A DNA stretch of 64,000 nt from Cytophagales bacterium (GTDB taxonomy: Bacteria; Bacteroidota; Bacteroidia; Cytophagales; CCMP332), in NCBI GenBank assembly GCA_965267555.1, contig OZ254083.1, positions 1,627,985 through 1,691,984 on the forward strand, in the 5' to 3' direction. The notes below the pieces were generated by a model. The model did no database searches, had not been told where the DNA came from, and saw only the letters and a program-made list of their open reading frames with translations. This document shows, piece after piece, positions 38,318 through 58,477 of the stretch (its first letter is position 1; the number at the start of each line of letters is the position of its first letter). The translations under genes were made by a program, and so were the position numbers.

Positions 38318-40723
38318 TTGAACGAATTTCAAAATACTGATCAGGAGGAAAAACAGGGTATTGGAATTATTCAGAAAGTACTTCTAAGTGCACTTTCTAA
38401 ATGGTACTGGATTGCTTTGTGCGTAATCGTATTTTTAACAGCTGCTTTTCTATACAACCGGTATACCACACCTATTTACCAGGTTTCCGCCTCTCTTGTA
38501 AAGGTAAAAGATCCTGAAAGTGAGAGTATTTTTTCAACCGGGAAATCTGCCGGTATTTTCCGTTCCGATGCAAGCGATGTGGAACGCGAATTAAGGATAA
38601 TAAAATCTCAAAAAAATATTGAAGAAGCCTTAAATGAATTGGATTTTCATTTTAGTGTTTACAGAGCCGGTGAAATTAAAACGACTGAAATCTATCCTCA
38701 TAATTATTTTTGGATTGAAATAGATTCAAATTCAACAAAGATTCCTTACGGAGAACTTTTTGAGTTTACCAATCTCAAGGATAATTCATCGTTTTCCTTA
38801 AATCCCTTAAGTGAACAAAGCGAATTTGCAGGTTTAGCGAAGAGCACTTTTACGTTTGGAAAGTGGTTTAATATCAATGGTTGTAAACTCAGAGTTCAAA
38901 AAATCACAAATAGCGACCTTTCTAAGACAAGTGATGATTTCCTTTTTAAATTCAACGATCCGGAACGAAACATTAATCTATACAACAATCAGCTAAGACT
39001 GCGAAGTGATAAAAATTCCAATAATATTTTTCACTTTGCTTTCAATTCTACTACGCCTCATAAGGACATGGCTTTTTTGGAAACCCTGATAAAGGTTGTC
39101 CGAAAAAACAACCTGAGCGAAAAAAACAGGGATGCTTCAAATTCTTTAAACTTTATTGAGGCTCAATTATCAAAACTAACTGACACTTTAAGTTATTTCA
39201 GAGGAAAAATTGATGAATACAAGATTAAAAATCTTGACTTCGGCAATGGATCAAATTTAATATTGGATAAGATCAACAGGCTTGAAGAGAGCAAATCGGA
39301 ATTGCTCCTTAGAAAAAATTATTATGAATACCTGGAAAATTATGTAAGACAAAAAAGAGATGAGGAAATATTTGCTCCGATGGTAATCGGTATTGATGAC
39401 CCCCTTCTCGATGCATTGGCATTAGAGTATATTGAAATTAAAAAAGAAGCGCGATTATTGAAAAATGAAAAAAACAAGGAAAATCCTTATCTCAATTATG
39501 AAGAAAATGTGGTACAAAGAATTGAAAAAAACATAATCGAAAACGTCACCAACCTTCAAGCAGACAATCAAAAAAAGCTTGTTGAAACCGAATCCAAAAT
39601 CAATTTTTATATATCCTCATTAAAAGGTTTACAGGAAGAGCAAAGGGATTTATACGAAATTCAGCAATTGTCTGAGCTAAATTCTCAACTGGTTGAACTC
39701 TTACTTCAAAAGAAAACAGAAATAAGCATCAGTAAATCGGCGAACAGTTCTGATTATGATATACTCGACAATCCAAAATATGTCGATGATCCTCTTATTC
39801 CGGATAAGGAAAGGAATCTATTAATTGCATTAGCTATTGGATTAGGGATTCCCTTTGGCTTTATTTATTTGAGGGAAGCCTTAAATAACAGAGTTAAATA
39901 TAAGGATGATCTTCTCAGCCTTACCGATATTCCACTCATTGGTGTTATAGGGCATAGTAAGCATTCCAATAATCTTGTGGTTACAGAAAAACCCAAATCA
40001 GTTGTATCTGAATCTTTTAGAGCTATCCGTTCAAATATTCATTTTCTTCAGGCAGGTGAAGAAGGCGGTGTTTTCCTTGTAACATCCAGTATTAGTGGTG
40101 AAGGAAAAACTTTTTGTTCAATCAATCTCGCACAAGTCTTTTCATTATCTGAAAAAAAAGTATTGCTCATAGGGGCAGATATGCGCAAACCCAAAATATA
40201 CGATGATTTTGGTATATCCAATGACTACGGATTGTCTTCATTTCTAAGCGGCGATATGAAACTGAATGAAGTTATCCAAAAAACCAGGTTTCCGAGTTTG
40301 GATATCATCAGTGCCGGAATAATTCCGCCAAACCCATCTGAATTGCTTATGAGCGATCGGATGCAAGAAGCCGTGAAAAATTTGAGGGAAGATTACGAGT
40401 ATATCATCATAGATTCTCCTCCTGTAGGCCTGGTGACAGATGCCAAAATCCTTATGGAAAGGGCAGATCAAACAATTTACATCGTAAGACAGAATGTTTC
40501 TCCCATTGAGGCGATTAAAAACCTTGACCAGGATTATCAGACAGGAAAAATAAATCATATTTCCATGATTCTCAATGATCTTTCGATGAAGAAAGGCGGC
40601 TATGGTTATGGCTATGGTTACGGATATGGTTACGGCTATGGCTATGGCTATGGTTATGGCTACTACGAAGACGACCACAAAAAGAAGAAAGGTGTTTTTA
40701 ACCGGCTGTTTGGAAAGGGCTGA
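38318..40723 (+). CDS. wzc: Polysaccharide co-polymerase / BY-kinase (Wzc-like)
   Basis: Two TM segments, SESFRAIRSN, Walker A TSSISGEGKT, GADMRKP, IIIDSPPV, C-terminal Tyr cluster; TTG start. Confidence 0.93.
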   Translation: MNEFQNTDQEEKQGIGIIQKVLLSALSKWYWIALCVIVFLTAAFLYNRYTTPIYQVSASLVKVKDPESESIFSTGKSAGIFRSDASDVERELRIIKSQKNIEEALNELDFHFSVYRAGEIKTTEIYPHNYFWIEIDSNSTKIPYGELFEFTNLKDNSSFSLNPLSEQSEFAGLAKSTFTFGKWFNINGCKLRVQKITNSDLSKTSDDFLFKFNDPERNINLYNNQLRLRSDKNSNNIFHFAFNSTTPHKDMAFLETLIKVVRKNNLSEKNRDASNSLNFIEAQLSKLTDTLSYFRGKIDEYKIKNLDFGNGSNLILDKINRLEESKSELLLRKNYYEYLENYVRQKRDEEIFAPMVIGIDDPLLDALALEYIEIKKEARLLKNEKNKENPYLNYEENVVQRIEKNIIENVTNLQADNQKKLVETESKINFYISSLKGLQEEQRDLYEIQQLSELNSQLVELLLQKKTEISISKSANSSDYDILDNPKYVDDPLIPDKERNLLIALAIGLGIPFGFIYLREALNNRVKYKDDLLSLTDIPLIGVIGHSKHSNNLVVTEKPKSVVSESFRAIRSNIHFLQAGEEGGVFLVTSSISGEGKTFCSINLAQVFSLSEKKVLLIGADMRKPKIYDDFGISNDYGLSSFLSGDMKLNEVIQKTRFPSLDIISAGIIPPNPSELLMSDRMQEAVKNLREDYEYIIIDSPPVGLVTDAKILMERADQTIYIVRQNVSPIEAIKNLDQDYQTGKINHISMILNDLSMKKGGYGYGYGYGYGYGYGYGYGYGYYEDDHKKKKGVFNRLFGKG
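40601..40666 (+). repeat. (TAYGGN)x10 + TACTAC encoding (YG)10-YY
   Basis: Read directly from the sequence; synonymous variation between units. Confidence 0.95.
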
Positions 40724-40731
40724 TTAGGATT

Positions 40732-41787
40732 ATGAAACTACTTCTCACCGGCGTTGCGGGCTTTATTGGATATCACACAGCTTTTAAATTACTTCAAGAG
40801 GGGCATGAAATTATCGGCCTCGATAATCTCAACACCTATTACGATGTGGATCTTAAGTTAAGGCGATTGGAATCACTGGGGATTAGTGCTTCTCAAATTT
40901 CCGATGATGAAGTTTTGCACAGTGATAATTTTAAAAATTTCAACTTTGTAAAAATTGACATTACAAATAAACATGAGCTGGTTGATCTCATCTCAAATAC
41001 CAATCCCGAAGTCATTATTCACTTAGCCGCACAGGCAGGGGTGCGTTATTCACTTGATCATCCTGAAAAATATCTCGAAAGTAATGTTCATGGATTTTTA
41101 AATCTCCTTGAAGCAATCAGGGAAAGGCCAATTAAGCATTTCATATTTGCTTCCAGTTCTTCTGTATACGGTCTTAATAAGGAAATACCGTTTAAAACGC
41201 ATCACCATACGGATCATCCCATTTCCCTTTATGCAGCCACTAAAAAAAGCAATGAAATGATGGCGCATACCTATAGCCACCTGTTTAATATTCCCATGAC
41301 AGGATTGAGGTTTTTTACGGTATACGGACCCTGGGGAAGACCTGATATGGCCATGTTCATTTTCACCAAAAACATATTGGAAGGAAAAGAAATTAAAGTC
41401 TATAATGAAGGGAAAATGAGCAGGGATTTTACGTATATCAGCGATATTGTTGATTCTATCAATAAGCTGATCGATAAAGTTCCGGAAGGCAAAAACTCAA
41501 ATGTCCAAAAGAATTTAGCGCCAAACGAAAGCACTGCTGCCTATCAATTATTTAATATTGGCTATAACGGCCCCACCAAATTGATGGACTTTATCAAAGC
41601 CATCGAAAAACATACGGGTAAAAAGGCAAAAATCAATTTTCAACCCTTACAGGCGGGTGATGTGGAAAATACGTTTGCCGATGTATCGGATTTATTTGAT
41701 TACATCGATTTCAAACCAAAAGTAGGGGTGGATGAAGGTGTTAAGAAATTTGTGGAATGGTACAAAGAATACTATTCCCGGATGTAA
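40732..41787 (+). CDS. NAD-dependent UDP-uronate 4-epimerase (GAE/CapI-like)
   Basis: TGVAGFIG, HLAAQAGVRYS, ASSSSVYG, YAATKK, RFFTVYGPWGRPDMA, QAGDV. Confidence 0.92.
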   Translation: MKLLLTGVAGFIGYHTAFKLLQEGHEIIGLDNLNTYYDVDLKLRRLESLGISASQISDDEVLHSDNFKNFNFVKIDITNKHELVDLISNTNPEVIIHLAAQAGVRYSLDHPEKYLESNVHGFLNLLEAIRERPIKHFIFASSSSVYGLNKEIPFKTHHHTDHPISLYAATKKSNEMMAHTYSHLFNIPMTGLRFFTVYGPWGRPDMAMFIFTKNILEGKEIKVYNEGKMSRDFTYISDIVDSINKLIDKVPEGKNSNVQKNLAPNESTAAYQLFNIGYNGPTKLMDFIKAIEKHTGKKAKINFQPLQAGDVENTFADVSDLFDYIDFKPKVGVDEGVKKFVEWYKEYYSRM

Positions 41788-44684: not shown

Positions 44685-45512
44685 TTGGAAAATAAACTAA
44701 TAACCACGATCAAACCTCAAAAAGGTTGGCAACTGATAGACATCAGAGAAATTATCAGATACAAAGACCTCTTGTATTTCCTTGTACTAAGAGGAATTAA
44801 AGCCAAATATGCGCAATCTGTTTTAGGTGTGAGCTGGGCCGTAATCCAACCATTGGTTCAAACGGTTGTTTTTACGTTGATTTTTGGAAAATTGGCGCGA
44901 TTGGGTAGTGATGGTGTGCCATACATCCTTTTCAGTTTTGCAGCCATGGTACCCTGGCATTATTTCAGTGGTATGCTTACCGAATCCTCAAATAGCCTGA
45001 CAGCAAATAAAGCTTTATTATCCAAAGTATATTTCCCGCGTCTGATATTACCACTCTCTGCCGTCTTTACTAAATTTATTGATTTCTCTATTGGGTTTGT
45101 TGTGATGATAGCCTTGTTTCTATACTACAATTTTATTCCATCATTCAACATCATATACTTGCCTCTTCTTTTACTAATAATGGTTCTTACATCAATTGGG
45201 GCAGGCATGATTTTATCTGCTCTGGCAGTTCAGTTCAGGGATGTGAACCACGCCATGTCATTTATGGTAAGAATTTTAATGTATTCGGCGCCCGTAGTCT
45301 ATTCCATATCTATTATTCCGGAAAAATATTTGTATTTCTACGCCCTCAATCCTATGGTAGGTGTAATTGAAGGAATGCGTTCTTCATTTCTTGGTACCAA
45401 AGCAATGCCCTGGGATTTAATCGGCATAGGCGCCATTGTATCAGTTTTTCTTTTTGTTTTTGGCTCATTTTACTTTCGTAAAATGGAAAGAAATTTTGCA
45501 GATGTGGCCTGA
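44685..45512 (+). CDS. wzm: ABC-2 polysaccharide exporter permease (Wzm)
   Basis: RYKDLLYFL, KYAQSVLGVSWAVIQP, LLSKVYFPR, FRDV, PVVYS, LNPM, FADV C-terminus. Confidence 0.93.
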   Translation: MENKLITTIKPQKGWQLIDIREIIRYKDLLYFLVLRGIKAKYAQSVLGVSWAVIQPLVQTVVFTLIFGKLARLGSDGVPYILFSFAAMVPWHYFSGMLTESSNSLTANKALLSKVYFPRLILPLSAVFTKFIDFSIGFVVMIALFLYYNFIPSFNIIYLPLLLLIMVLTSIGAGMILSALAVQFRDVNHAMSFMVRILMYSAPVVYSISIIPEKYLYFYALNPMVGVIEGMRSSFLGTKAMPWDLIGIGAIVSVFLFVFGSFYFRKMERNFADVA

Positions 45513-47951: not shown

Positions 47952-49235
47952 ATGTCTAATTCGAATATTGTAATAAGTGTTAAAAACATAAGTAAACGTT
48001 ATCGTTTAGGCACATATGAAAAAGCCGATACTTTTGCCGGTCAGATTAAAAATGCTATAACTTATCCATTGCGAAATCTAAAACGAATTTCCAGGCTGAG
48101 TTCATTTAAAGGAGAGGAAGACGATACCATATTCTGGGCATTAAAAGACATTAATTTTGAAGTAAAAAAAGGGGAGGTTTTGGGTATTATCGGCCATAAT
48201 GGAGCCGGAAAAAGTACACTGCTAAAAATACTCAGCCGCATCACACCTCCTAGTCAAGGTGAGATAGAAATTAAGGGCAGAGTTTCTTCCTTGCTGGAAG
48301 TGGGTACTGGATTTCACCCCGAACTCAGCGGAAGGGATAATATCTATATGAACGGGACCATTTTGGGAATGACCAAAAAGGAGATCGATTCAAAACTTAA
48401 TGAAATTATTGATTTCGCCGGCGTTCACAAACACATAGACACCCCGGTCAAATTTTATTCAAGCGGTATGAAAGTCCGATTGGGTTTTAGTGTGGCGGCC
48501 CATCTTGAACCTGAAATACTTATTATCGATGAGGTATTGGCAGTAGGTGATGCCGAATTTCAGAAGAGATGTCTGGGAAAAATGGAAGATATTTCAGGAC
48601 AGGGAAGAACAGTTCTCTTTGTAAGTCATAATATGAATGCGGTAAAATCTCTTTGTCCAAAGGCAATTTTATTAAAAAATGGAAATCTATTGAGCAGTGG
48701 GCCCTCAGATATAATTGTGGATGAGTATTTGTCAATAAATAATACAGGAACCAGCTATTTTAAATTTGAAGATGAGGGACATTTAAAAGAAGATCATATT
48801 CAAATCAACTGGATTCGGATTAAATCCAATGAGGAAGAATACCAAAACCAAATACCATTGGATCATGATATATTGGTTGAAATCGAAGTTTCATTTCTAC
48901 AAAAACCCGAATTAGATTATGGTTTTACCATACAATTTAAAAATGATAAAGGTGATATATTATTTGTAACAGGGCCTAAGAACATGGATTTCGCAAAAGA
49001 TGATGCTGGTTCTAAAATATTACAATGTCATATTCCAAGTCCATTTTTTAATGAAGGAAATTTCTCTTTGAATTTTCATGTTGTGAGAAGAGGAAATCAA
49101 AGAAAAATTGTTAAAAAATGGGAAGATATTCTATTCTACACTATTGGTCCACCAAAAGTCGATATTGGTGATTGGATGGGCAAAGCGAAAGGATGGTTAA
49201 GACCTGAACTTAAGTGGTCAATTTCTAAAAATTAA
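47952..49235 (+). CDS. wzt: ABC exporter ATPase Wzt with C-terminal carbohydrate-binding domain
   Basis: FWALKDINF, GHNGAGKST, LLEVGTGFHPELSGRDN, YSSGMKVRL, IDEVLAVGD, VSH, plus ~170-aa C-terminal extension. Confidence 0.94.
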   Translation: MSNSNIVISVKNISKRYRLGTYEKADTFAGQIKNAITYPLRNLKRISRLSSFKGEEDDTIFWALKDINFEVKKGEVLGIIGHNGAGKSTLLKILSRITPPSQGEIEIKGRVSSLLEVGTGFHPELSGRDNIYMNGTILGMTKKEIDSKLNEIIDFAGVHKHIDTPVKFYSSGMKVRLGFSVAAHLEPEILIIDEVLAVGDAEFQKRCLGKMEDISGQGRTVLFVSHNMNAVKSLCPKAILLKNGNLLSSGPSDIIVDEYLSINNTGTSYFKFEDEGHLKEDHIQINWIRIKSNEEEYQNQIPLDHDILVEIEVSFLQKPELDYGFTIQFKNDKGDILFVTGPKNMDFAKDDAGSKILQCHIPSPFFNEGNFSLNFHVVRRGNQRKIVKKWEDILFYTIGPPKVDIGDWMGKAKGWLRPELKWSISKN

Positions 49236-49259: not shown

Positions 49260-50030
49260 TTGATATTAAAACCATTTAGAAAAAAATGCTCTGCATTTAT
49301 AATTGGTGCTCAAAAAGCTGGCACAACCGAATTGTTTAGCATTCTTTCCTTGCACCCTGATATAGTTCCATCAATAAACAAAGAAGTGCATTTTTTTTCA
49401 TCAGAATACAAATACGCTAATTATGGACTTCAATGGTATAAAAAACAATTTCCTTATATACCGATTTGGAGTAGTAAAATACTGATGGAAGCTACACCTT
49501 CATATATGTTCAGTCCATTGGCGATTGAAAGAATCAAAACATACAATCCAAATAGTAAGATCATTATTTTATTAAGGGATCCAGTAAAACGCGCTTTTTC
49601 AGCATGGAATATGTTTAACAAAGAATTCAGAAAAAAGGATAGAGACAAGCTATTACTTGATGAAAGATCTTTTGATAAGGCAATTCATGATGAAGTAAAT
49701 GATCCCAACAAAGAAAACAAGCGCTATTATTTATCAAAAGGTCATTATTCAGACCAATTGGAAATAGTTTTTAAATATTTCGACCCTGAAAATGTACTAA
49801 TTATTCAGAGTGAAAGATTTTGGTACAATAGGTCAAATTATTTAAACAAAATCTGCAATTTCTTAAACATTTCACCATATACATTTAAGTTGGTTGAAAC
49901 AAAACATCAAGGGAAAGGAAATTATTCTGAATCCATGTCCAAAGAAATTGAAAAAGAACTAATTGAGTATTATGCTCCATACAATCGCAAATTATTTCAA
50001 TTATTAAATACTGAATTTGATTGGTTATAA
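49260..50030 (+). CDS. PAPS-dependent sulfotransferase (Sulfotransfer_1, heparan-sulfate-ST-like)
   Basis: IIGAQKAGTT (5'-PSB loop), KEVHFF, EATPSY, LRDPVKRAFSAW (3'-PB). Confidence 0.88.
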   Translation: MILKPFRKKCSAFIIGAQKAGTTELFSILSLHPDIVPSINKEVHFFSSEYKYANYGLQWYKKQFPYIPIWSSKILMEATPSYMFSPLAIERIKTYNPNSKIIILLRDPVKRAFSAWNMFNKEFRKKDRDKLLLDERSFDKAIHDEVNDPNKENKRYYLSKGHYSDQLEIVFKYFDPENVLIIQSERFWYNRSNYLNKICNFLNISPYTFKLVETKHQGKGNYSESMSKEIEKELIEYYAPYNRKLFQLLNTEFDWL

Positions 50031-50870
50031 GTGTTTATAAATAAAATACTCGATAGAAATAAAAGAAGATCAATTAATAATTTCTTGGTCAATTTTGGGT
50101 ACTATGTAAAACCTTCCTTTTTAATTGTAGGTGCTCAAAAAGCGGGAACAACAGCATTGTTCCAATTATTAGCTCATCATTCAGGAATAAAGGCTCCTAA
50201 GACTAAAGAGATTAGCTATTTTTATGATGATTCACTGTACAATCTGCGGGGTCATTATTATTATCACATACATTTTCCCAAACCCCATCAGATAGGTATT
50301 TCTCAGCAAACGTTTGAAGCTACACCCGAATATTTATATCATCCAAAATGCGCAGAAAGAATTTATACATATCGGCCGGATATTAAAATAATAATACTGT
50401 TAAGGGAACCTGTTTCAAGAGCCTATTCGGCCTGGACTATGTATCATAATTTTTATAAATCCAAAAATCACAATCATCTTGAGGACTCCCGAAGTTTTGA
50501 GAATGCTATTAACAATGAGTTGAACAATATAGATTCAGTCAATTGGTACATGGATAAGTTTGGATATCTTAGAAGAGGGATTTACCATGATCAGGTAAAA
50601 AGGTATTTGAAAATTTTTCCAAAGGATCAACTATTAATTTTGGAAAGTGAGGAATTAAAAACAGACTCTAATAACGGCCTGCCGAAAGTTCTCGATTTTC
50701 TCTCTTTGTCGAAAGAAATAAAACTTCATACCAATAAAACTAATAAAAGAGAGTACTCCAATGAGATTGATCCTAAAACTATGGAAACCTTAATTGATTT
50801 CTATAAACCTTATAATACCGAGTTATTTGATTTGTTAAATAAGGATTATGGCTGGAATAACATATTGTAA
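50031..50870 (+). CDS. PAPS-dependent sulfotransferase, paralogue 2
   Basis: IVGAQKAGTT, KEISYF, EATPEY, LREPVSRAYSAW, RGIYHDQV; GTG start. Confidence 0.88.
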   Translation: MFINKILDRNKRRSINNFLVNFGYYVKPSFLIVGAQKAGTTALFQLLAHHSGIKAPKTKEISYFYDDSLYNLRGHYYYHIHFPKPHQIGISQQTFEATPEYLYHPKCAERIYTYRPDIKIIILLREPVSRAYSAWTMYHNFYKSKNHNHLEDSRSFENAINNELNNIDSVNWYMDKFGYLRRGIYHDQVKRYLKIFPKDQLLILESEELKTDSNNGLPKVLDFLSLSKEIKLHTNKTNKREYSNEIDPKTMETLIDFYKPYNTELFDLLNKDYGWNNIL

Positions 50871-50890: not shown

Positions 50891-51976
50891 TTGATTCCTG
50901 TTACCAAACCGTTTCTGGCTCCTCAAGAATATTATCAAAAGTACCTTGATGGAATCTGGGAAAGAAACTGGCTCACCAATCATGGTCCCTTAACATTAGA
51001 ACTCGAAGAATCCTTAAAAAATTTCCTTGATGTAGCACATCTCAAACTGGTTACCAATGGCACAATAGCCATTCAGTTTGCAATAAGAGCCCTGGATATT
51101 AAGGGTGAGATCATTACTACTCCTTTTTCCTATGTGGCTAGCACAAGCAGTATTTCCTGGGAAAACTGTGAACCCGTTTTTGTGGATATTGATCGCTCAA
51201 CTTTTAATATAGATCCTTCTGAGATTGAAAAGGCTGTTACCAAAAACACAAAAGCAATTTTGGCAACACATGTATTTGGCAACCCCTGTGATGTTCTGGA
51301 AATTGAAAGAATTGCCAATAGACATAATTTAAAGGTCATTTATGATGCGGCGCATGCCTTCAATGTCAGAATAGGAAATATAAGTGTTTTCAATTACGGA
51401 GATGTGAGTACCACCAGCTTTCATGCTACCAAGATTTTTCACATGATAGAAGGTGGAGCAGTAGTTACAAAATCCGAAGAACTGGATTATAAAATTTCCA
51501 GGATGAGAAATTTCGGACATAAGGGACCTGAGAACTTTGATGGGATAGGTATTAATGGAAAGGTTTCGGAATTTCACTCCGCTATGGGATTGCTTAACCT
51601 GAAATTCGCCGGTGAAATCCAGACTAAAAGAAAACATCAGTCAGAGTTGTATCGGAAGTATTTGAATCAAAGCAATTTGCAGTATCAGCATATTGATGAG
51701 AATGTGGATTACAACTACGCCTATTTTCCTGTTTTATTTGAGTCCGAATCACAATTAAAAAATGTGATTTCCGCACTGAATTCTTGGGATATTTTTCCGC
51801 GAAGATATTTTTATCCTTTGCTTACCGAGTTGCCTTATGTCAATAAAGTAGATCTTCCGCAGGCGGAAAGTATTAGTAGTAGGATTTTGTGTCTTCCGCT
51901 TTATCATACATTAAAAGATCAAGAAATAGAAAGAATCTCGGATATTATCTTAAATTCAATTTCCAGTATTGCCTGA
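50891..51976 (+). CDS. vioA: DegT/DnrJ sugar aminotransferase, VioA-like
   Basis: MIPVTKPFL, WLTNHGP, NGTIA, TPFSYVAS, YDAAHAF, SFHATK (PLP Lys), INGKVSEFH, RRYFYP. Confidence 0.85.
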   Translation: MIPVTKPFLAPQEYYQKYLDGIWERNWLTNHGPLTLELEESLKNFLDVAHLKLVTNGTIAIQFAIRALDIKGEIITTPFSYVASTSSISWENCEPVFVDIDRSTFNIDPSEIEKAVTKNTKAILATHVFGNPCDVLEIERIANRHNLKVIYDAAHAFNVRIGNISVFNYGDVSTTSFHATKIFHMIEGGAVVTKSEELDYKISRMRNFGHKGPENFDGIGINGKVSEFHSAMGLLNLKFAGEIQTKRKHQSELYRKYLNQSNLQYQHIDENVDYNYAYFPVLFESESQLKNVISALNSWDIFPRRYFYPLLTELPYVNKVDLPQAESISSRILCLPLYHTLKDQEIERISDIILNSISSIA

Positions 51977-52679
51977 ATTAAAGCTGGCGATAATGCAGCC
52001 CTATTTTTTTCCCTATCTAGGTTATTTTCAGCTGGTAGCCGCCAGCGATCTTTTTATTTTTTACGATGATGTCAATTTTATTAAAAGAGGCTGGATCAAC
52101 AGAAACAAGATTGGCTTGAACAATACGGATTATCTTATTACCATTCCCTGTATCAAACCGTCTCAAAACAAATTAATCATGGATACGGAAGTAAACCTGG
52201 ATCATGAAAATTTGAAAAAAACATTTCAGACCTTTCAACAAGCATACAGTAAGGCACCAAATTTTGATATTGTTAATCAAATGTTCAGCGAAGTGTTTAA
52301 CAATGTACCGGCAAATATCTCATCTATTGCAATTAAATCTGTAAAACTTGCGAGTGAATACCTTGGCCTGAATACACGCTTTAAAATTTCCTCGGAAGAA
52401 GATTATGGTAATAATGTTTTAAAAAAAGCAGATCGATTGATAGATATCTGTCATCGTGAAGGTTTTGAATCATACATTAATGCAAAAGGGGGAATTGAAT
52501 TGTATGATAAGGCCTATTTCAAAAATCACAAGGTTGATCTTAAGTTTTTAGACCCTGTATTTACCGATTATGATCGAATAAATCAGGATTTCATACCCGG
52601 ACTTTCAATTCTGGATGTAATTGCATTTTCGTCCCGGAAGGAAGCTAAGTTAATGTGTCAAAAATATAATCTCATTTAG
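51969..52679 (+). CDS. wbqC: WbqC-family protein (putative glycyl/aminoacyl transferase)
   Basis: AIMQPYFFPYLGYFQL, YDDVNFIKRGWINRN, YSKAPNF, YINAKGG, LSILD. Confidence 0.9.
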   Translation: MPELKLAIMQPYFFPYLGYFQLVAASDLFIFYDDVNFIKRGWINRNKIGLNNTDYLITIPCIKPSQNKLIMDTEVNLDHENLKKTFQTFQQAYSKAPNFDIVNQMFSEVFNNVPANISSIAIKSVKLASEYLGLNTRFKISSEEDYGNNVLKKADRLIDICHREGFESYINAKGGIELYDKAYFKNHKVDLKFLDPVFTDYDRINQDFIPGLSILDVIAFSSRKEAKLMCQKYNLI

Positions 52680-53803
52680 TGGAATTCTTATACAACAGAC
52701 ACCAGCTTAGAGAGCTTTCACAATTTATATGCAATTCCTGTTTAAAGGTGGAAAAAGGTAGCTTTGTGATTCTGGAAGGAATGGATGTTCCTCCAAATGA
52801 TCTAAAACTAGTGGCTGAGATCCTCTCCGAATATGATTTTGAGTGTATTGTTTTGAATAAATCATTAGTGCTAAACTGGATAAACAACAGAAGCCGTACA
52901 TTTAATTATCTGTCCACACAGGCGGAATTTGAATTAAGCCTGATGAAAAAAGCAAAAGCCTTTATTGGCTTACGATGCCCTCTGAATACCATTTATGAAG
53001 TGAAAGACAATGTTAGGAAACGTGTAATTGAGGATTATATACAACCCGTTCATTTTAATTTCAGGAATAAAAACCTTCAATGGCTGTATTGCAGACTGCC
53101 AACATCCGACTGGATTTCTGAGACCATTTCGGTCGATGATTATTTTAAAAGCATTCAACTTGATTTTACAAGATTTGAAGAACGAATGTCCATTTTAAAC
53201 AATCGGATTGCCAATTGCTCTATATTTCATTTCCAAGGGGCGAATACAAGTCTTAGGATTGAAAATTCTGGACAAGGAGTTGTGAACTCCGTAGGTAGAC
53301 ATAATTTGCCCGATGGCGAGGTTTTTTTTAGTCCTGAAAAAAGAGGCATTCATGGTAAGATCACGTTTAATATTCCTTCTTTTTATTGGGATAATACATT
53401 TGAAAATATTTCACTGACTTTTAAAAACGGAAAAGTTATTGAATCTGATTCTACAGTAAATTCTGAAGCGCTAAAAAGTAATATAAATTTTGATTCAGGT
53501 TCTGCCTATTGCGGAGAAGTTGCTTTTGGTTTAAATCCATTTGTACGCAAATCGATTACCGATATCCTTTATGATGAAAAAATGCATGGCAGTTTTCATA
53601 TTGCATTGGGAAATGCCTATCCTGAATCTGACAATGGTAACAGGTCGGGAGTTCATTGGGATCTGATTCAGGACATGCGAAAGGATGCAACCAAAGTGTA
53701 TTTTGATGAAGAACTAATTATGGAGAATGGCACATTTGTACCTGATGACTTGAAGTTATTGAATATTAGTGAATTAAAAGACTATATCAGTTATGAAAAA
53801 TAA
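52679..53803 (+). CDS. M29 (AmpS/AmpT-type) metallo-aminopeptidase
   Basis: NLPDGEVF, GEVAFG, LYDEKM, HIALGNAY, HWD metal/catalytic motifs; GTG start. Confidence 0.85.
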   Translation: MEFLYNRHQLRELSQFICNSCLKVEKGSFVILEGMDVPPNDLKLVAEILSEYDFECIVLNKSLVLNWINNRSRTFNYLSTQAEFELSLMKKAKAFIGLRCPLNTIYEVKDNVRKRVIEDYIQPVHFNFRNKNLQWLYCRLPTSDWISETISVDDYFKSIQLDFTRFEERMSILNNRIANCSIFHFQGANTSLRIENSGQGVVNSVGRHNLPDGEVFFSPEKRGIHGKITFNIPSFYWDNTFENISLTFKNGKVIESDSTVNSEALKSNINFDSGSAYCGEVAFGLNPFVRKSITDILYDEKMHGSFHIALGNAYPESDNGNRSGVHWDLIQDMRKDATKVYFDEELIMENGTFVPDDLKLLNISELKDYISYEK

Positions 53804-54452
53804 GGTTGTATTATTTGGAATATTGGATACTGCTGAACTGGCACATTTTTATTTAACACATGATTCTAAATATGAAGTTGTTGCTTTTACTGTAAACAAA
53901 GAATATTTAAAAGAGCAGAATTTCCGTGGTTTACCTGTAGTTGCCTTTGAAGATGTTCATATCGTTTATCCACCGGACCAGTTTTTGTTTTTTGCCCCTA
54001 TGACTGGAAGAAGAATGAATAAAAACAGAGAATCCGTATATAATGAAGCTAAATCCAAAGGATATGAATTTATTTCATATTTAAGTTCAAAAGCTACAGT
54101 TTTTCCAGAGGCAGAAATAGGTGAGAATTGTTTTATCCTTGAAGACAATACAATACAACCATTTACAAAAATTGGCAATAATGTTGTTTTATGGAGTGGT
54201 AATCATATTGGTCATCATGGAATAATAAATGATCATGTATTTTTTACCTCTCATGTTGTAATGTCAGGGCATTGTATAATTGAATCTTACTCTTTTTTCG
54301 GTGTGAATGCAACATTACGTGATTATCTTACCATAGGAAAAGGTTCGCTCATTGCAATGGGCGCTTCAGTTACAAAAAATACAGAGCCTTGGGGTGTATA
54401 TTTTGGAAGTCCGGCAAGAAAAGGTCCGAAATCGAGTATTGACACATACTAA
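53793..54452 (+). CDS. Hexapeptide-repeat sugar acyltransferase (NeuD/PglD/VioB-like)
   Basis: N-terminal Rossmann domain, IGENCFILE, IGNNVVLWSGNHIGHH, GSPAR. Confidence 0.88.
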   Translation: MKNKVVLFGILDTAELAHFYLTHDSKYEVVAFTVNKEYLKEQNFRGLPVVAFEDVHIVYPPDQFLFFAPMTGRRMNKNRESVYNEAKSKGYEFISYLSSKATVFPEAEIGENCFILEDNTIQPFTKIGNNVVLWSGNHIGHHGIINDHVFFTSHVVMSGHCIIESYSFFGVNATLRDYLTIGKGSLIAMGASVTKNTEPWGVYFGSPARKGPKSSIDTY

Positions 54453-56605: not shown

Positions 56606-57425
56606 AAAACAGTTTGCAGAAGACGGGTATTTGCTCATTAAAAATTTCTTTGATCGTGGAATACTCGACAACGCATTTCTAGATACTCTTAAAATATTCA
56701 GTATATCGATGAATAATCATTTAGAGATTGATTTTGATCGATCGACGGAAACCGAGTATGTCGAAAAAAAGATGTTTGAGTTTTTTAAGAAAGATATTGA
56801 AGCATTTATTAATACAGGTAAACAAGTTCAACACACCTTTAATTTATGGCGTATTGCGACTTCATCGCAAATTGAAGACCTTTTAATTAATCTTGGTCTT
56901 GATTTTCCTAATTTAAGTGTAAGGCCAAGTTTTTTCTTCAATTCAAGATTTCTTGATAATACGGGCCATTATTGGAAGCTGGGAAGCCATCAGGACTGGA
57001 GATCTAGTCAGGGTTCGCTGGATTCAGTGACATTATGGTACCCTTACGTTGACTGCAACAAATCTTTAGGTGCTTTAGAAGTGATTCCAGGATCCCATTT
57101 TAACGGCTTATTGGAAGCAGGAGATGTTGATTATTACAGTGAAATCAAATCCGATCAGATTAACGAGTCAGAATTTGTTTCAGTTGAAATGAATAAAGGA
57201 GATCTTTTAATATTTAATTCTTTTCTTGTTCATCGTTCAGGAACAAATGTAACAGACAGAGTCAGATGGTCTTCTCAGTTAAGATATAATAATTTAAATG
57301 AGAAATCATTTATTAAAAGAAATATGCCAAACCCCTACATCTATAAACCAGCGGCAGAATTGGTTAAACCCGGTCCACCTAGCAGAAAGGAAATCAAAAA
57401 CTTTTTTCAAAACCTAAATCAATGA
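56592..57425 (+). CDS. PhyH-family Fe(II)/2-oxoglutarate dioxygenase
   Basis: SHQDW (HxD), LEVIPGSH, GDLLIFNSFLVHRSG.N...RWS. Confidence 0.88.
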   Translation: MKVNKKQFAEDGYLLIKNFFDRGILDNAFLDTLKIFSISMNNHLEIDFDRSTETEYVEKKMFEFFKKDIEAFINTGKQVQHTFNLWRIATSSQIEDLLINLGLDFPNLSVRPSFFFNSRFLDNTGHYWKLGSHQDWRSSQGSLDSVTLWYPYVDCNKSLGALEVIPGSHFNGLLEAGDVDYYSEIKSDQINESEFVSVEMNKGDLLIFNSFLVHRSGTNVTDRVRWSSQLRYNNLNEKSFIKRNMPNPYIYKPAAELVKPGPPSRKEIKNFFQNLNQ

Positions 57426-58477
57426 TCAAATATGTTCATATCGGTTACCCGAAGAATTTTTCAACTTCCCTTCAAAGAAGCTTTTTTTCAATTAACCCTG
57501 AAATATATCATTTGGGAATTGGAAACGATTCCAATATAGATTATAAGGATAAATTTTTGTCGTCCATTTTTGAGGTATATTTAAAAACTTCCAAAGGTTT
57601 TAAATACAATGAGGTTAAAAAACGTATTAAGGATCATATTGATTTTCACTATTCAAAGGCAATAGAATCCAAAGCAAAGGCATTTGGCGTTTCGAGCGAA
57701 CATTTTTCATTTAGTTTTACCTATGACTGTCTCGATTTTGAAACAAAGTTTGATAGGTTAATTGAATTATTTGGAGATGATATTGTGGTCATCGCGATTA
57801 TCAGAGAGCAGATTGCTCTTATTAAATCGCTTTATAAAGAATCTGTAAGAGTCGGTTTCCCCGGAAGTTTTAATGATTTCTTATATGCTTTTTATAAGTA
57901 CCAAGACAGGAACTATTACTATGATCTTCGATACGATCTGGTTTATGATTATTTATCTAAAAAATTAAGTGCCAATCAGTTACATTTATTAACCTTTGAA
58001 TCCTATAGAGGGGAGAGAGAGAAACTTTTAAAAAATGACATGGGGGAATATTCAATTACCTCCGATCTTGCAAAGATCTTGAAAGTCAAAAATAAAGGAG
58101 ATGTTTTTCAACATTTCAATGCAGCTCTTAAAGACAAGGAAGTAAAAATTAAATCAGAATTAAACAAAACGACCAGACATGATCTTGGAAATAATTTGTA
58201 TTCATCTGCTGAATTGCACAGACAGGCTCAATATTTTATTCAAGAGTTGGAATTAAATGAAAAAGAAAATATACTATTTAGAGACGTGCTGGTTAAACGT
58301 AAATTATTAAAAGATGCTGCATCAATGGCAGAAGACAATAACGTAGATTTTGATTTGTTTAAATGTGACAAGGAATTGCTTAATAAGATCAGTACTTTTT
58401 ACATGAAGGGAAATCAAAAATTAATCGATTTATCAGGAATTAAATTGACTGATGAATATTTAATAGAATCATTTTGA
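57422..58477 (+). CDS. Divergent sulfotransferase-like P-loop protein
   Basis: HIGYPKNFSTSLQ, SSEHFS, IIREQIALIKSLY. Confidence 0.6.
   Translation: MIKYVHIGYPKNFSTSLQRSFFSINPEIYHLGIGNDSNIDYKDKFLSSIFEVYLKTSKGFKYNEVKKRIKDHIDFHYSKAIESKAKAFGVSSEHFSFSFTYDCLDFETKFDRLIELFGDDIVVIAIIREQIALIKSLYKESVRVGFPGSFNDFLYAFYKYQDRNYYYDLRYDLVYDYLSKKLSANQLHLLTFESYRGEREKLLKNDMGEYSITSDLAKILKVKNKGDVFQHFNAALKDKEVKIKSELNKTTRHDLGNNLYSSAELHRQAQYFIQELELNEKENILFRDVLVKRKLLKDAASMAEDNNVDFDLFKCDKELLNKISTFYMKGNQKLIDLSGIKLTDEYLIESF

What the first reader, a model, noticed from the sequence alone, without database searches (positions are those of the whole stretch)
49260..50870. Tandem heparan-sulfate-sulfotransferase-like paralogues directly after wzt
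Seen: both carry KAGTT, EATPxY and LRxPVxRAxSAW. Copy 1 has KEVHFF; copy 2 has KEISYF and lacks the His. Known: KxGT, EVHFF and RxPxxRxxS motifs typify eukaryotic HS N- and 3-O-sulfotransferases; characterised bacterial polysaccharide sulfotransferases are few. Inference: the two enzymes have different regiospecificity on a uronate-containing glycan (a uronate epimerase is upstream), possibly a glycosaminoglycan mimic. No PAPS-synthesis genes (cysDN/cysC) are in the window.
Basis: partly seen in the sequence, partly recalled or inferred. Interest (0 to 1): 0.7.

Follow-up and report, generated by a model that had tools for sequence, protein, structure and literature searches.

The report
Two sulfotransferases in a polysaccharide operon
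Two adjacent genes after the polysaccharide ABC exporter encode intact sulfate-adding enzymes of the same fold as animal heparan-sulfate sulfotransferases, and most likely decorate this bacterium's own surface polysaccharide with sulfate; this is a good but ordinary example of a very large, mostly untested bacterial enzyme family, not evidence for a heparin mimic.

Summary
Both pass Pfam Sulfotransfer_1. Their best solved relatives are heparan sulfate 3-OST-1/3/5 and the NDST1 N-sulfotransferase domain, by sequence (E 2e-25, 3e-22) and by AlphaFold/Foldseek (pLDDT 93 and 92, TM 0.7-0.84). The PAPS-loop Lys, the 3'-phosphate Arg/Ser and the Glu catalytic base are invariant in 44 relatives. The His missing from ST-B varies across the family, so it is not diagnostic.

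The genome has cysQ-cysC-cysD-cysN in one operon with another sulfotransferase, 12 Sulfotransfer_1 genes in all, and three more sulfotransferases just beyond the window in the same locus.

The pair has one-to-one orthologues in a congener. It lies at the start of the locus's variable region, whose left edge falls inside wzt.

Best reading: two soluble cytoplasmic PAPS-dependent sulfotransferases with different acceptors sulfate the lipid-linked glycan before Wzm/Wzt export.

The glycosaminoglycan-mimic idea is unsupported. Heparan-sulfate-contacting residues are not conserved, and adjacent genes point to an N-acylated 4-amino-4,6-dideoxyhexose. The fold resemblance is shared by about 12,800 protein clusters.

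Verdict: new member of a known kind.

The parts
49260..50030 (+). ST-A: PAPS-dependent sulfotransferase, 256 aa, heparan sulfate 3-OST/NST-like subgroup of Sulfotransfer_1. Key residues K19 (PAPS loop), E42 (base), R106/S114 (3'-phosphate site).
   Evidence: Pfam 3.2e-14. PDB 1zrh 1.9e-25. AF2 pLDDT 93.2. Foldseek TM 0.78-0.84 to 3-OST-1/3/5 and NDST1. Invariant residues in alignment A1. No membrane segment, pI 9.2.
50031..50870 (+). ST-B: paralogous sulfotransferase, 279 aa. Key residues K37, E60, R125/S133. Ser replaces the His of EVHFF. It has a 20-residue basic N-terminal helix.
   Evidence: Pfam 1.3e-18. PDB 3uan 3.4e-22. AF2 pLDDT 92.4. Foldseek top hits 3rnl, 3-OST-1/5/3 and NDST1. 40% identical to ST-A. 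60% identical orthologue in G001.
47952..49235 (+). wzt: ABC ATPase with a roughly 180-aa C-terminal domain. The nucleotide-binding domain is about 94% identical to the congener's; the C-terminal domain only about 50%.
48600..48750 (.). Left boundary of the locus's variable (serotype-like) region, inside wzt at the junction of the nucleotide-binding and C-terminal domains.
   Evidence: Nucleotide identity to G001 falls from about 0.82-0.86 to about 0.63 here and stays at 0.46-0.73 through the sulfotransferases, DegT and WbqC.
44685..45512 (+). wzm: ABC-2 permease and first gene of the co-directional operon that contains the sulfotransferases.
   Evidence: Pfam ABC2_membrane 2.8e-18.
50891..51976 (+). 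DegT-family sugar aminotransferase of DesI/VioA type (NDP-4-keto-6-deoxyhexose 4-aminotransferase), 20 nt after ST-B. A DegT gene lies within two genes of a sulfotransferase in seven of the close-homologue contexts.
   Evidence: Pfam 2.5e-85. NCBIfam best match DesI, below its cut-off. PDB 2po3 1.4e-53. Neighbourhoods.
51969..52679 (+). WbqC-family protein of unknown biochemistry, part of the recurring sulfotransferase-DegT-WbqC cassette.
   Evidence: Pfam 1.3e-61. The same order is seen in L035 and L037.
53793..54452 (+). NeuD/PglB/VioB-family sugar N-acyltransferase, the likely fate of the amine made by DegT in this locus.
   Evidence: NCBIfam TIGR03570 6.1e-47, 159.8 bits against a cut-off of 160.8.
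40732..41787 (+). NAD-dependent epimerase resembling UDP-glucuronate/galacturonate 4-epimerases. It lies in the conserved 5' part of the locus (92% identical in G001).
57422..58477 (+). 351-aa ORF with sulfotransferase-like motifs at the expected places (GYPKNFSTSL; IIREQIALIKS; FYMKGNQKLIDLSG). It may be a very divergent extra sulfotransferase, but this is unproven.
   Evidence: Read from the sequence. hhalign against the family was not significant. No PDB or Pfam match. Absent from G001.

Best explanation
ST-A and ST-B are two catalytically competent, soluble, cytoplasmic PAPS-dependent carbohydrate sulfotransferases. They belong to the Glu-base (heparan sulfate 3-OST/NST-like) branch of the Sulfotransfer_1 family. 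They are co-transcribed with wzm/wzt and with the sugar-nucleotide and glycosyltransferase genes of a roughly 50-kb surface-polysaccharide locus. Using PAPS made by the genome's cysD/cysN/cysC genes, with PAP removed by CysQ, each transfers sulfate to a different acceptor position. The acceptor is the undecaprenyl-diphosphate-linked glycan, or its repeat unit, while it is still on the cytoplasmic face of the inner membrane. The sulfated chain is then exported by Wzm/Wzt. The pair belongs to the strain-variable part of the locus, so sulfation is part of what distinguishes this strain's glycan from its congener's.

Shown here: fold, cofactor-binding and catalytic residues, paralogy and orthology, operon position, presence of the PAPS pathway, and absence of membrane segments.

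Inferred: that the proteins are active, that the acceptor is this locus's glycan, that the two act at different positions, and that sulfation precedes export.
For: - **Family and fold.** Pfam Sulfotransfer_1 is over the cut-off for both proteins. The best solved relatives are 3-OST-1/3/5, then a bacterial sulfotransferase (3rnl) and NDST1. The AF2 models score pLDDT 93.2 and 92.4. Foldseek gives TM 0.66-0.84 and E 1e-17 to 1e-10 to those structures, then a clear gap to the next class (curacin sulfotransferase, E 1e-7, TM 0.5).
- **Catalytic set.** K19/K37, K41-E42/K59-E60, R106/R125, P108 and S114/S133 are invariant in 44 relatives. PMC11625862 defines the PAPS-loop Lys, the PB-helix Ser and a Glu base for HS3ST1/NST1.
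- **Cytoplasmic location.** There is no hydrophobic segment (maximum KD19 of 1.0-1.2) and the pI is 9.1-9.2.
- **Operon position.** Gaps are 24, 0 and 20 nt within a co-directional gene run.
- **Both copies retained.** G001 has one-to-one orthologues (54% and 60% identical) in the same order. In the tree the two copies form separate lineages.
- **PAPS supply.** CysN, CysD, CysC and CysQ are all over their NCBIfam cut-offs and share an operon with a Sulfotransfer_5 protein.
- **Heavy investment in sulfation.** The genome has 12 PF00685 matches, three of them 2-10 kb beyond the window in the same locus. The genus and family are sulfotransferase-rich.
- **Precedent.** Sulfated capsule or EPS loci pair canonical Wzx/Wzy or ABC export machinery with sulfotransferases and cysDNC (PMC11641403, PMC11766843, PMC13125312).
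Against: - There is no chemical evidence that this organism's glycan is sulfated, and no expression data. The RNA runs found hold none of the sequence.
- Some close relatives of ST-B (P0011, P0028, P0015) sit outside any glycan locus, so the subfamily is not tied to polysaccharides.
- The acceptor, the regiochemistry and the timing (nucleotide sugar, lipid-linked unit or polymer) cannot be read from sequence.
- In Aeromonas salmonicida, a sulfotransferase-domain gene directly after wzt coexists with an O-antigen in which no sulfate was found (PMC4483657).
Confidence: 0.72

Rival explanations
1. The sulfotransferases work specifically on the amino sugar made by the adjacent DegT(-WbqC) genes. 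They would O-sulfate it, or N-sulfate its amine as NDST does for GlcN, possibly at the nucleotide-sugar or single-residue stage rather than on the polymer.
For: A DegT aminotransferase lies within two genes of a subfamily member, usually with two or more sulfotransferases around it. This holds in the own locus, G001, L035, L036, L037, L038 and L076. The DegT orthologues there are 49-54% identical, more than the sulfotransferases themselves. No N-acyltransferase is visible in the 16.9 kb of the Winogradskyella locus L038. The NDST1 N-sulfotransferase domain is among the closest structures.
Against: This locus has a VioB-family N-acyltransferase and WbqC, which would occupy the amine. The closest homologue in the phylum sample (G065, 46% identical to ST-B) and five other 20-kb contexts have no DegT. 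Only 3 of 27 sampled loci have DegT adjacent. I know of no N-sulfated sugar in a bacterial polysaccharide (from memory).
Confidence: 0.13
2. One of the two enzymes adds a sulfate to the non-reducing end of the finished chain. This cap would stop polymerisation and would be the epitope read by the variable C-terminal domain of Wzt before export.
For: The sulfotransferases follow wzt directly. The Wzt C-terminal domain diverges in step with them (about 50% against 94% for the nucleotide-binding domain). The order wzt-sulfotransferase recurs in L035, L038, L014, L047 and L067. Capped chains recognised by a Wzt carbohydrate-binding module are an established mechanism (PMC9445017, PMC11231755). The A. 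salmonicida wzt-adjacent sulfotransferase with no sulfate in the repeat unit would fit a sub-stoichiometric cap.
Against: Known terminators carry a coiled-coil molecular ruler (PMC11231755), whereas ST-A and ST-B are single-domain proteins. The Wzt_C match is below cut-off and the domain has no PDB sequence match. Only 2 of 27 sampled family members have Wzt upstream. Sulfate is not among the terminators described in the paper read. A. salmonicida also has a WbbB homologue, whose Klebsiella prototype terminates with Kdo.
Confidence: 0.07
3. One reading: the enzymes sulfate a uronate-containing, glycosaminoglycan-like backbone (heparosan- or chondroitin-like), making a host-mimicking glycosaminoglycan.
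For: The closest solved structures are heparan sulfate 3-OSTs and NDST1. A UDP-glucuronate 4-epimerase-like gene lies 7.5 kb upstream.
Against: Positions aligned with 3-OST-1 R67, R72, D95, K123 and R276 are Q18, T23, S47, A78 and N in ST-A, and Q18 and A78 are fixed family-wide. The roles of those 3-OST-1 residues are recalled from memory. The same fold-level similarity holds for 12,826 protein clusters at E<=1e-10. Neighbouring genes specify a 4-amino-4,6-dideoxyhexose pathway. Export is by Wzm/Wzt, not KpsMT/KpsCSDE. No large bifunctional glycosaminoglycan synthase is present in the roughly 50-kb locus, where glycosyltransferases are 314-404 aa. The organism is a T9SS-rich Bacteroidota with no sign of being an animal pathogen.
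Confidence: 0.04
4. ST-B is a catalytically dead paralogue, because it lost the His of EVHFF, and serves only as a scaffold or regulator for ST-A.
For: ST-B has Ser in place of the His. It also has an extra basic N-terminal helix.
Against: The Glu base, the PAPS-loop Lys and the Arg/Ser of the 3'-phosphate site are all intact. The His column is H in 29 of 44 relatives and N, D, S, G or A in the rest. NDST-type enzymes also lack it (from memory). The orthologue in G001 is 60% identical with the same features, more conserved than ST-A's orthologue.
Confidence: 0.04

Closest known systems
Animal heparan sulfate glucosamine 3-O-sulfotransferases (3-OST-1/3/5; PDB 1zrh, 3uan, 1t8t, 3bd9)
   Same: Same fold (TM about 0.8). 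Same PAPS-loop Lys, 3'-phosphate Arg/Ser and Glu catalytic base in the K/N-E-V-H-F-F segment. Similar size of the catalytic domain. About 25% identical.
   Different: The bacterial proteins are soluble and cytoplasmic, not Golgi type II membrane proteins. Residues aligned with the heparan-sulfate-contacting basic residues are not conserved. The genomic context indicates a non-glycosaminoglycan acceptor.
N-sulfotransferase domain of NDST1 (PDB 1nst, 8ccy)
   Same: Same fold (TM 0.71-0.80) and the same Glu-base class. Like ST-B, it lacks the His after the Glu (the last point is from memory).
   Different: NDST1 is fused to a deacetylase and acts on GlcN of heparan sulfate. Sequence similarity is weaker (E about 1e-11) than to the 3-OSTs.
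Uncharacterised bacterial sulfotransferase from Alicyclobacillus acidocaldarius (PDB 3rnl)
   Same: Top Foldseek hit for ST-B and third for ST-A (E 6e-16 and 2e-16), at 27-28% identity. It is a bacterial, soluble member of the same branch.
   Different: It is a structural-genomics entry with no known substrate, so it adds no functional information.
Sulfated capsule and EPS loci of marine bacteria and cyanobacteria (Vibrio sp. KMM 8419, Cobetia marina KMM 1449, Synechocystis synechan xss)
   Same: Canonical polysaccharide assembly and export genes sit beside one to several sulfotransferases, with a cysDNC(Q) PAPS supply (PMC11641403, PMC11766843, PMC13125312).
   Different: Those loci use KpsMT or Wzx/Wzy and usually keep cysDNC inside the locus. 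Here export is by Wzm/Wzt (with Wza/Wzc and a Wzy_C protein also in the locus), PAPS genes are 378 kb away, and the locus has five or more sulfotransferases. Sequence relatedness of those enzymes to ST-A/ST-B was not tested.
Aeromonas salmonicida wbsalmo ORF19 (sulfotransferase-domain protein directly after wzt)
   Same: The gene order wzt-sulfotransferase occurs in an ABC-transporter-dependent O-antigen cluster (PMC4483657).
   Different: It is a single 216-aa protein. No sulfate was found in that O-antigen and its function is unknown. Homology to ST-A/ST-B was not tested.

Membership tests
PAPS-dependent sulfotransferases, Pfam Sulfotransfer_1 (PF00685) | Whole-protein score above the curated gathering score | tested here: met
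   53.4 and 67.8 bits against a cut-off of 22. The whole-genome scan agrees.
PAPS-dependent sulfotransferases, Pfam Sulfotransfer_1 (PF00685) | 5'-phosphosulfate-binding loop with a catalytic Lys (GxxKxGTT) | tested here: met
   GAQKAGTT is present in both. K19/K37 is invariant in 44 relatives. The definition is from PMC11625862.
PAPS-dependent sulfotransferases, Pfam Sulfotransfer_1 (PF00685) | 3'-phosphate-binding strand-turn-helix with Arg and Ser | tested here: met
   The motifs are LRDPVKRAFS and LREPVSRAYS. R106, P108, R111 and S114 are invariant.
PAPS-dependent sulfotransferases, Pfam Sulfotransfer_1 (PF00685) | alpha/beta fold with a central parallel sheet, superposable on solved sulfotransferases | tested here: met
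   AF2 pLDDT is 93.2 and 92.4. Foldseek probability is 1.00 with TM 0.66-0.84 to 3-OSTs, NDST1 and 3rnl.
PAPS-dependent sulfotransferases, Pfam Sulfotransfer_1 (PF00685) | Sulfate transfer from PAPS to an acceptor | not testable with these tools
   This needs purified protein and a PAPS or PAP35S assay.
Glu-base branch (HS3ST / NST type) | Glutamate, not histidine, as catalytic base, at the position of 3-OST-1 Glu in ENEVHFF | tested here: met
   E42 (ST-A) and E60 (ST-B) align with that Glu in HMMER alignments to 1zrh and 3uan and are invariant in the family. The class definition is in PMC11625862.
Heparan sulfate 3-O-sulfotransferase (functional membership) | Basic and acidic residues that contact heparan sulfate (3-OST-1 R67, R72, D95, K123, R276; roles recalled from memory, source paper not held) | tested here: not met
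   The aligned residues in ST-A are Q18, T23, S47, A78 and N. Q18 is invariant and A78 is 38 of 44 across the bacterial family. H271 and K274 equivalents (HxxKG) are kept in ST-A.
Heparan sulfate 3-O-sulfotransferase (functional membership) | Lumenal enzyme with a membrane anchor acting on a HexA-GlcN backbone | tested here: not met
   There is no hydrophobic segment. Neighbouring genes specify other sugars. No heparosan or chondroitin machinery was recognised in the locus.
O-polysaccharide chain terminators of ABC-transporter-dependent pathways (WbdD / WbbB type) | Terminator activity carried on a protein with a coiled-coil molecular ruler (PMC11231755) | tested here: not met
   ST-A and ST-B are single sulfotransferase domains. 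ST-B has only a 19-residue N-terminal helix.
O-polysaccharide chain terminators of ABC-transporter-dependent pathways (WbdD / WbbB type) | Partner Wzt carries a carbohydrate-binding module that reads the cap | tested here: inconclusive
   A 180-aa C-terminal domain is present and strain-variable. However, the Wzt_C match is E 0.0014, 19 bits against a cut-off of 30.4, and there is no PDB sequence match.

The most novel reading that the evidence does not exclude
The recurring module of a DesI/VioA-type aminotransferase flanked by two or more Glu-base sulfotransferases makes a multiply sulfated 4-amino-4,6-dideoxyhexose. The module is seen in this locus, its congener, Winogradskyella, Salegentibacter and metagenomic contigs. 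One enzyme would N-sulfate the amine, giving a sulfamate as in heparan sulfate GlcNS, and the other would O-sulfate the sugar. That residue type has not, to my knowledge, been described in a bacterial polysaccharide. A related untested variant is a terminal sulfate cap read by the variable Wzt C-domain.
Probability: 0.1. Interest if true: 0.7.

Novelty: new member of a known kind. Interest (0 to 1): 0.35.

Why it matters
Few bacterial polysaccharide sulfotransferases have been characterised biochemically (PMC11625862, PMC11641403). They are wanted as soluble, E. coli-expressible alternatives to the animal Golgi enzymes used for heparin- and chondroitin-type products. This locus offers a compact test set. 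It has two related but long-separated paralogues with intact catalytic sets, three more distant sulfotransferases in the same locus, and a congener with a diverged allele of the whole cassette. The genome also has a dedicated PAPS/PAP-recycling operon. That makes it a reasonable place to learn acceptor-specificity rules for a family of more than 12,000 protein clusters. It also identifies this Bacteroidota lineage as a probable producer of a heavily sulfated surface glycan. It does not, on present evidence, reveal a new mechanism or a host-mimicking glycosaminoglycan.

Tried and rejected
- **wzt-sulfotransferase coupling as a rule.** In a 401-genome phylum sample, 23 genomes had a homologue at E<=1e-15. 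Only 2 of 27 loci had Wzt within 1.5 kb upstream and 3 of 27 had DegT adjacent. Adjacency is a feature of a subset, not of the family.
- **Recent tandem duplication.** The tree does not place ST-A and ST-B as sisters. ST-B groups with metagenomic proteins (UFboot 91) and ST-A with its G001 orthologue and P0003. Their 40% identity is as deep as the subfamily itself.
- **His loss as a marker of inactivity or N- versus O-specificity.** Rejected, because the column varies across the family and the Glu base is invariant.
- **ORF 57422-58477 as a sixth sulfotransferase.** hhalign gave probability 0.6% (E 0.09), and there was no PDB or Pfam match. It is left as an unproven hint.
- **Wzt C-terminal domain against solved structures.** No sequence match.
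- **Expression evidence.** The sequencing runs that hold the region appear to be the assembly's own sample. RNA-labelled runs hold none of it.
- **Literature on WbqC.** Nothing informative was found.
- **Moon et al. 2012 on 3-OST-1 substrate contacts.** The paper is not held, so those residue roles are cited from memory.
- **The search for related loci in genome contigs.** It returned only distant relatives at 28-37% identity. The closest contexts came from the genome search and the look-up of encoding contigs.
Full report
**1. Observation**

ST-A is 49260-50030 (256 aa, TTG start). ST-B is 50031-50870 (279 aa, GTG start). ST-A begins 24 nt after the stop of the preceding gene (47952-49235). 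ST-B begins on the base after the ST-A stop. The next gene begins 20 nt after ST-B.

- ST-A: GAQKAGTT, NKEVHFF, MEATPSY, LLRDPVKRAFSAW.
- ST-B: GAQKAGTT, TKEISYF, FEATPEYL, LLREPVSRAYSAW.

The two proteins are 40% identical over 252 residues (E 3e-53). The upstream gene is a Wzt-type ABC ATPase. It has ABC_tran, NCBIfam TagH/Wzt-like matches, and a 180-aa C-terminal extension with a sub-threshold Wzt_C match. A Wzm permease lies at 44685-45512.

**2. What the proteins are**

Both exceed the Pfam Sulfotransfer_1 gathering score (53.4 and 67.8 bits against 22). Against all PDB sequences, the best matches are:
- human and mouse heparan sulfate 3-OST-1 (1.9e-25 for ST-A, 3.4e-22 for ST-B);
- then 3-OST-5 and 3-OST-3;
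- then an uncharacterised Alicyclobacillus sulfotransferase (3rnl);
- then the NDST1 N-sulfotransferase domain at about 1e-11.

AlphaFold2 models built on a 44-sequence alignment are confident (pLDDT 93.2 and 92.4). Foldseek returns the same set with TM 0.66-0.84 and E 1e-17 to 1e-10. There is then a clear gap to the next class, the curacin sulfotransferase at E 1e-7 and TM 0.5.

**3. Catalytic competence**

A review of polysaccharide sulfotransferases (PMC11625862) defines the class by three features:
- a Lys in the PAPS-binding loop;
- a Ser on the 3'-phosphate-binding helix;
- a catalytic base, which in HS3ST1 and NST1 is a glutamate rather than the histidine of cytosolic enzymes.

In the 44-sequence alignment the invariant columns are G16, Q18, K19, K41, E42, Y82, R106, P108, R111, S114 and Y163, in ST-A numbering. 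ST-B has the same set. E42/E60 align with the Glu of ENEVHFF in 3-OST-1.

Neither protein has a hydrophobic segment (maximum 19-residue Kyte-Doolittle of 1.0-1.2), and both are basic with pI 9.1-9.2. They are soluble cytoplasmic proteins, unlike the Golgi-anchored animal enzymes.

**4. How special is the resemblance to heparan sulfate enzymes?**

It is not special. An exhaustive HMMER search of 1.84 billion cluster representatives found:
- 32,978 clusters at E<=1e-3;
- 12,826 clusters at E<=1e-10;
- 410 clusters at E<=1e-30.

Outside the congener (54% identity), the nearest relative is 41% identical. In a maximum-likelihood tree, human 3-OST-1 branches inside the bacterial diversity. It sits nearer to ST-A/ST-B than the three other sulfotransferases of the same locus do. 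That is a long branch, so the placement is tentative.

Several positions differ between 3-OST-1 and ST-A in the HMMER alignment:

| 3-OST-1 segment | ST-A segment | Substitutions |
|---|---|---|
| GVRKGGTRAL | GAQKAGTTEL | R67 to Q, R72 to T |
| EVHFFD | EVHFFS | D95 to S |
| VEKTPAY | MEATPSY | K123 to A |
| HESKGR | HQGKGN | R276 to N |

Q18 and A78 are fixed or nearly fixed across the bacterial family. I recall those 3-OST-1 residues as needed for heparan sulfate binding or catalysis (Edavettal 2004; Moon 2012). I could not verify this, because the paper is not held.

The fold and chemistry are therefore shared, but the acceptor-binding surface is not.

**5. The two copies**

A congeneric genome (G001) has the same tandem pair in the same place. 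The correspondence is one to one: ST-A 54% and ST-B 60% identical to their orthologues, against 35-40% across paralogues.

In the tree, ST-A with its orthologue and ST-B with its orthologue are separate lineages of one subfamily and are not sisters. ST-B groups with metagenomic proteins, with moderate support. The pair is therefore old, and both members have been kept. That fits two different jobs, but it does not show what the jobs are. Another family of the order (G037) also has a tandem pair of this subfamily.

**6. The locus**

The genes run co-directionally from about 37.4 kb to beyond the window's end. In order they are:
- Wza, then Wzc;
- a UDP-glucuronate-4-epimerase-like gene;
- a GFO/MocA oxidoreductase;
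- a NusG/UpxY-like gene and a small unknown ORF;
- Wzm, an MBOAT, an SGNH-like gene, then Wzt;
- ST-A, then ST-B;
- a DegT gene (DesI/VioA-like), WbqC, an M29 peptidase and a VioB-family acyltransferase;
- an unknown ORF, a methyltransferase, a PhyH dioxygenase and another unknown ORF;
- a GT2, a GNAT, an AsnB-like gene, an unknown ORF and a second GNAT.

The whole genome shows that the locus continues for about 24 kb more. That stretch has GT4 enzymes and three further Sulfotransfer_1 proteins (C1:1694111-1694947, 1698472-1699341, 1701517-1702491). It also has a Wzy_C-family membrane protein, a T9SS-tailed secreted protein and further NDP-sugar enzymes.

Comparison with G001 shows a classic variable-centre pattern:
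- Flanking genes are 90-96% identical.
- Identity collapses through ST-A (54%), ST-B (60%), DegT (55%) and WbqC (45%).
- Five genes are replaced outright.
- Identity then climbs back.

The left edge of the variable region lies inside wzt. The nucleotide-binding domain is about 94% identical and the C-terminal domain about 50%. Nucleotide identity drops from about 0.82-0.86 to about 0.63 near window 48,600-48,750. The sulfotransferase pair is thus part of what differs between the two strains' glycans.

**7. Sulfate donor**

The genome has one APS kinase. It sits in an operon at C1:2067248-2072517 with this gene order:
- a Sulfotransfer_5 protein;
- a class IV aminotransferase;
- CysQ;
- CysC;
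- CysD;
- CysN.

The four Cys proteins are all above their NCBIfam cut-offs, and the Sulfotransfer_5 match is 9e-43. PAPS synthesis and PAP removal are thus present and are wired to a sulfotransferase.

The genome has 12 PF00685 matches. Its three congeners have 6-8, the sister genus has 3-5, and most other families of the order have 0-1. The genome has 118 T9SS sorting domains and about 37% GC, so it is a Bacteroidota.

**8. Contexts elsewhere**

Close homologues repeat parts of the cassette:

| Source | Gene order |
|---|---|
| Metagenomic contig L035 | Wzc, Wzm, Wzt, ST, ST, DegT, WbqC, ST, GT2, MT |
| Winogradskyella vidalii (L038) | Wza, Wzc ... Wzm, Wzt(Wzt_C), ST, DegT, ST, MT, GT2 |
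| Salegentibacter sediminis (L036) | cysC, cysD, cysN ... Wzx, ST, DegT, ATP-grasp, ST, GT2 |
| L037 | WbqC, DegT, Sulfotransfer_4, ST, Wzx |
| L076 | ST, Wzx, Sulfotransfer_4, DegT, ST |
| Aminicenantes MAG (L014) | Wzm, Wzt, about 1.4 kb, ST |

The association is not general, however:
- Three ST-B-like proteins sit among housekeeping genes.
- Six 20-kb contexts from the phylum sample lack DegT.
- In that sample, 23 of 401 genomes have a homologue at E<=1e-15. Only 2 of 27 loci have Wzt upstream and 3 of 27 have DegT adjacent.

**9. Most likely mechanism**

In an ABC-transporter-dependent pathway, the whole glycan is built on undecaprenyl diphosphate at the cytoplasmic face. That is the only compartment where PAPS is available.

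Two soluble sulfotransferases co-transcribed with the transporter and the sugar genes are therefore best read as cytoplasmic tailoring enzymes. They would sulfate the lipid-linked chain or repeat unit before Wzm/Wzt export, each at its own position. This matches the general scheme described for sulfated bacterial and cyanobacterial polysaccharides: canonical assembly and export machinery plus sulfotransferases plus a PAPS supply (PMC11641403, PMC11766843, PMC13125312).

I put this at about 0.72. Within that figure:
- That the proteins are active sulfotransferases is close to certain.
- That they act on this locus's glycan is likely.
- That they act at two different sites is plausible.
- The identity of the sites is unknown.

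**10. Rivals**

- **Amino-sugar acceptor (about 0.13).** The enzymes may be specific for the DegT-derived amino sugar, possibly including N-sulfation. This would explain the recurring 'DegT flanked by sulfotransferases' pattern. It is weakened by the VioB-type acyltransferase here and by homologues without DegT.
- **Terminal sulfate cap (about 0.07).** A cap read by the variable Wzt C-domain would be new. However, described terminators carry a coiled-coil ruler (PMC11231755), which these proteins lack. The carbohydrate-binding-module assignment is also weak.
- **Glycosaminoglycan mimic (about 0.04).** See sections 4 and 6.
- **Dead ST-B (about 0.04).** See section 3.

The Aeromonas salmonicida cluster is a caution for all readings. 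It has a sulfotransferase-domain gene directly after wzt, yet no sulfate was found in the O-antigen (PMC4483657).

**11. Verdict**

- two distinct enzymes: yes;
- PAPS pathway present: yes;
- glycosaminoglycan mimic: no support;
- His loss meaningful: no.

This is a new member of a known kind of system. It is useful as a test bed for acceptor specificity in a very large uncharacterised family, but it would not surprise a specialist.

Noticed in passing
genome C1:2067248-2072517 (outside the window, minus strand): One operon encodes a Sulfotransfer_5 protein, a class IV (branched-chain/D-amino-acid type) aminotransferase, CysQ, CysC, CysD and CysN. PAPS synthesis and PAP recycling are thus linked to yet another sulfotransferase rather than to sulfite reduction genes. 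The substrate of that sulfotransferase-aminotransferase pair is unknown.
   Followed up: partly
window 57422-58477 (+): A 351-aa ORF with no Pfam or PDB match carries sulfotransferase-like motifs in the right order: GYPKNFSTSL near the N-terminus, IIREQIALIKS with the Arg-to-Ser spacing of the 3'-phosphate site, and FYMKGNQKLIDLSG at the C-terminus. It is absent from the congener. hhalign against the family was not significant.
   Followed up: partly
window 48600-48750, inside wzt: The recombination or divergence boundary of the variable part of the polysaccharide locus falls at the junction between the Wzt nucleotide-binding domain and its C-terminal domain. The C-terminal domain co-varies with the glycan-specific genes.
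   Followed up: yes
genome C1:1691865-1716000 (just beyond the window's 3' end): The locus continues for about 24 kb. It holds three more Sulfotransfer_1 genes, several GT4/GT2 genes, a Wzy_C-family membrane protein (C1:1702491-1703705) and a 709-aa protein with a T9SS sorting tail embedded among them. It also holds NDP-sugar enzymes and an ArnC-like GT2 with a large membrane protein. Wza/Wzc, Wzm/Wzt and a Wzy_C protein therefore coexist in one gene run.
   Followed up: partly
whole genomes G000-G007 versus the rest of the order: The window's taxonomic family is enriched in Sulfotransfer_1 genes. The four genomes of the genus have 12, 8, 6 and 7, and the sister genus has 3-5. Most other families of the order have 0-1.
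   Followed up: partly
G001 (L022, L031-L033): The congener's public record is named 'Hyphobacterium sp. CCMP332', which NCBI places in Alphaproteobacteria (Maricaulaceae). Yet it shares 90-96% identical flanking proteins with this roughly 37% GC genome, which has 118 T9SS sorting domains. The label looks wrong; it may be a co-cultured Bacteroidota from an algal culture.
   Followed up: partly
window 38318-40723 (+): The Wzc-type tyrosine kinase ends in a long perfect (GY)n repeat, GGYGYGYGYGYGYGYGYGYGYY, followed by a Lys-rich tail. This is an unusually regular form of the Tyr-rich autophosphorylation tail.
   Followed up: no
L035, L036, L037, L038, L076 and the window: A DesI/VioA-like DegT aminotransferase recurs next to two or more sulfotransferases of different subfamilies (Sulfotransfer_1 and Sulfotransfer_4). 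WbqC or an ATP-grasp enzyme is often present. The pattern spans several Bacteroidota and metagenomic contigs.
   Followed up: partly
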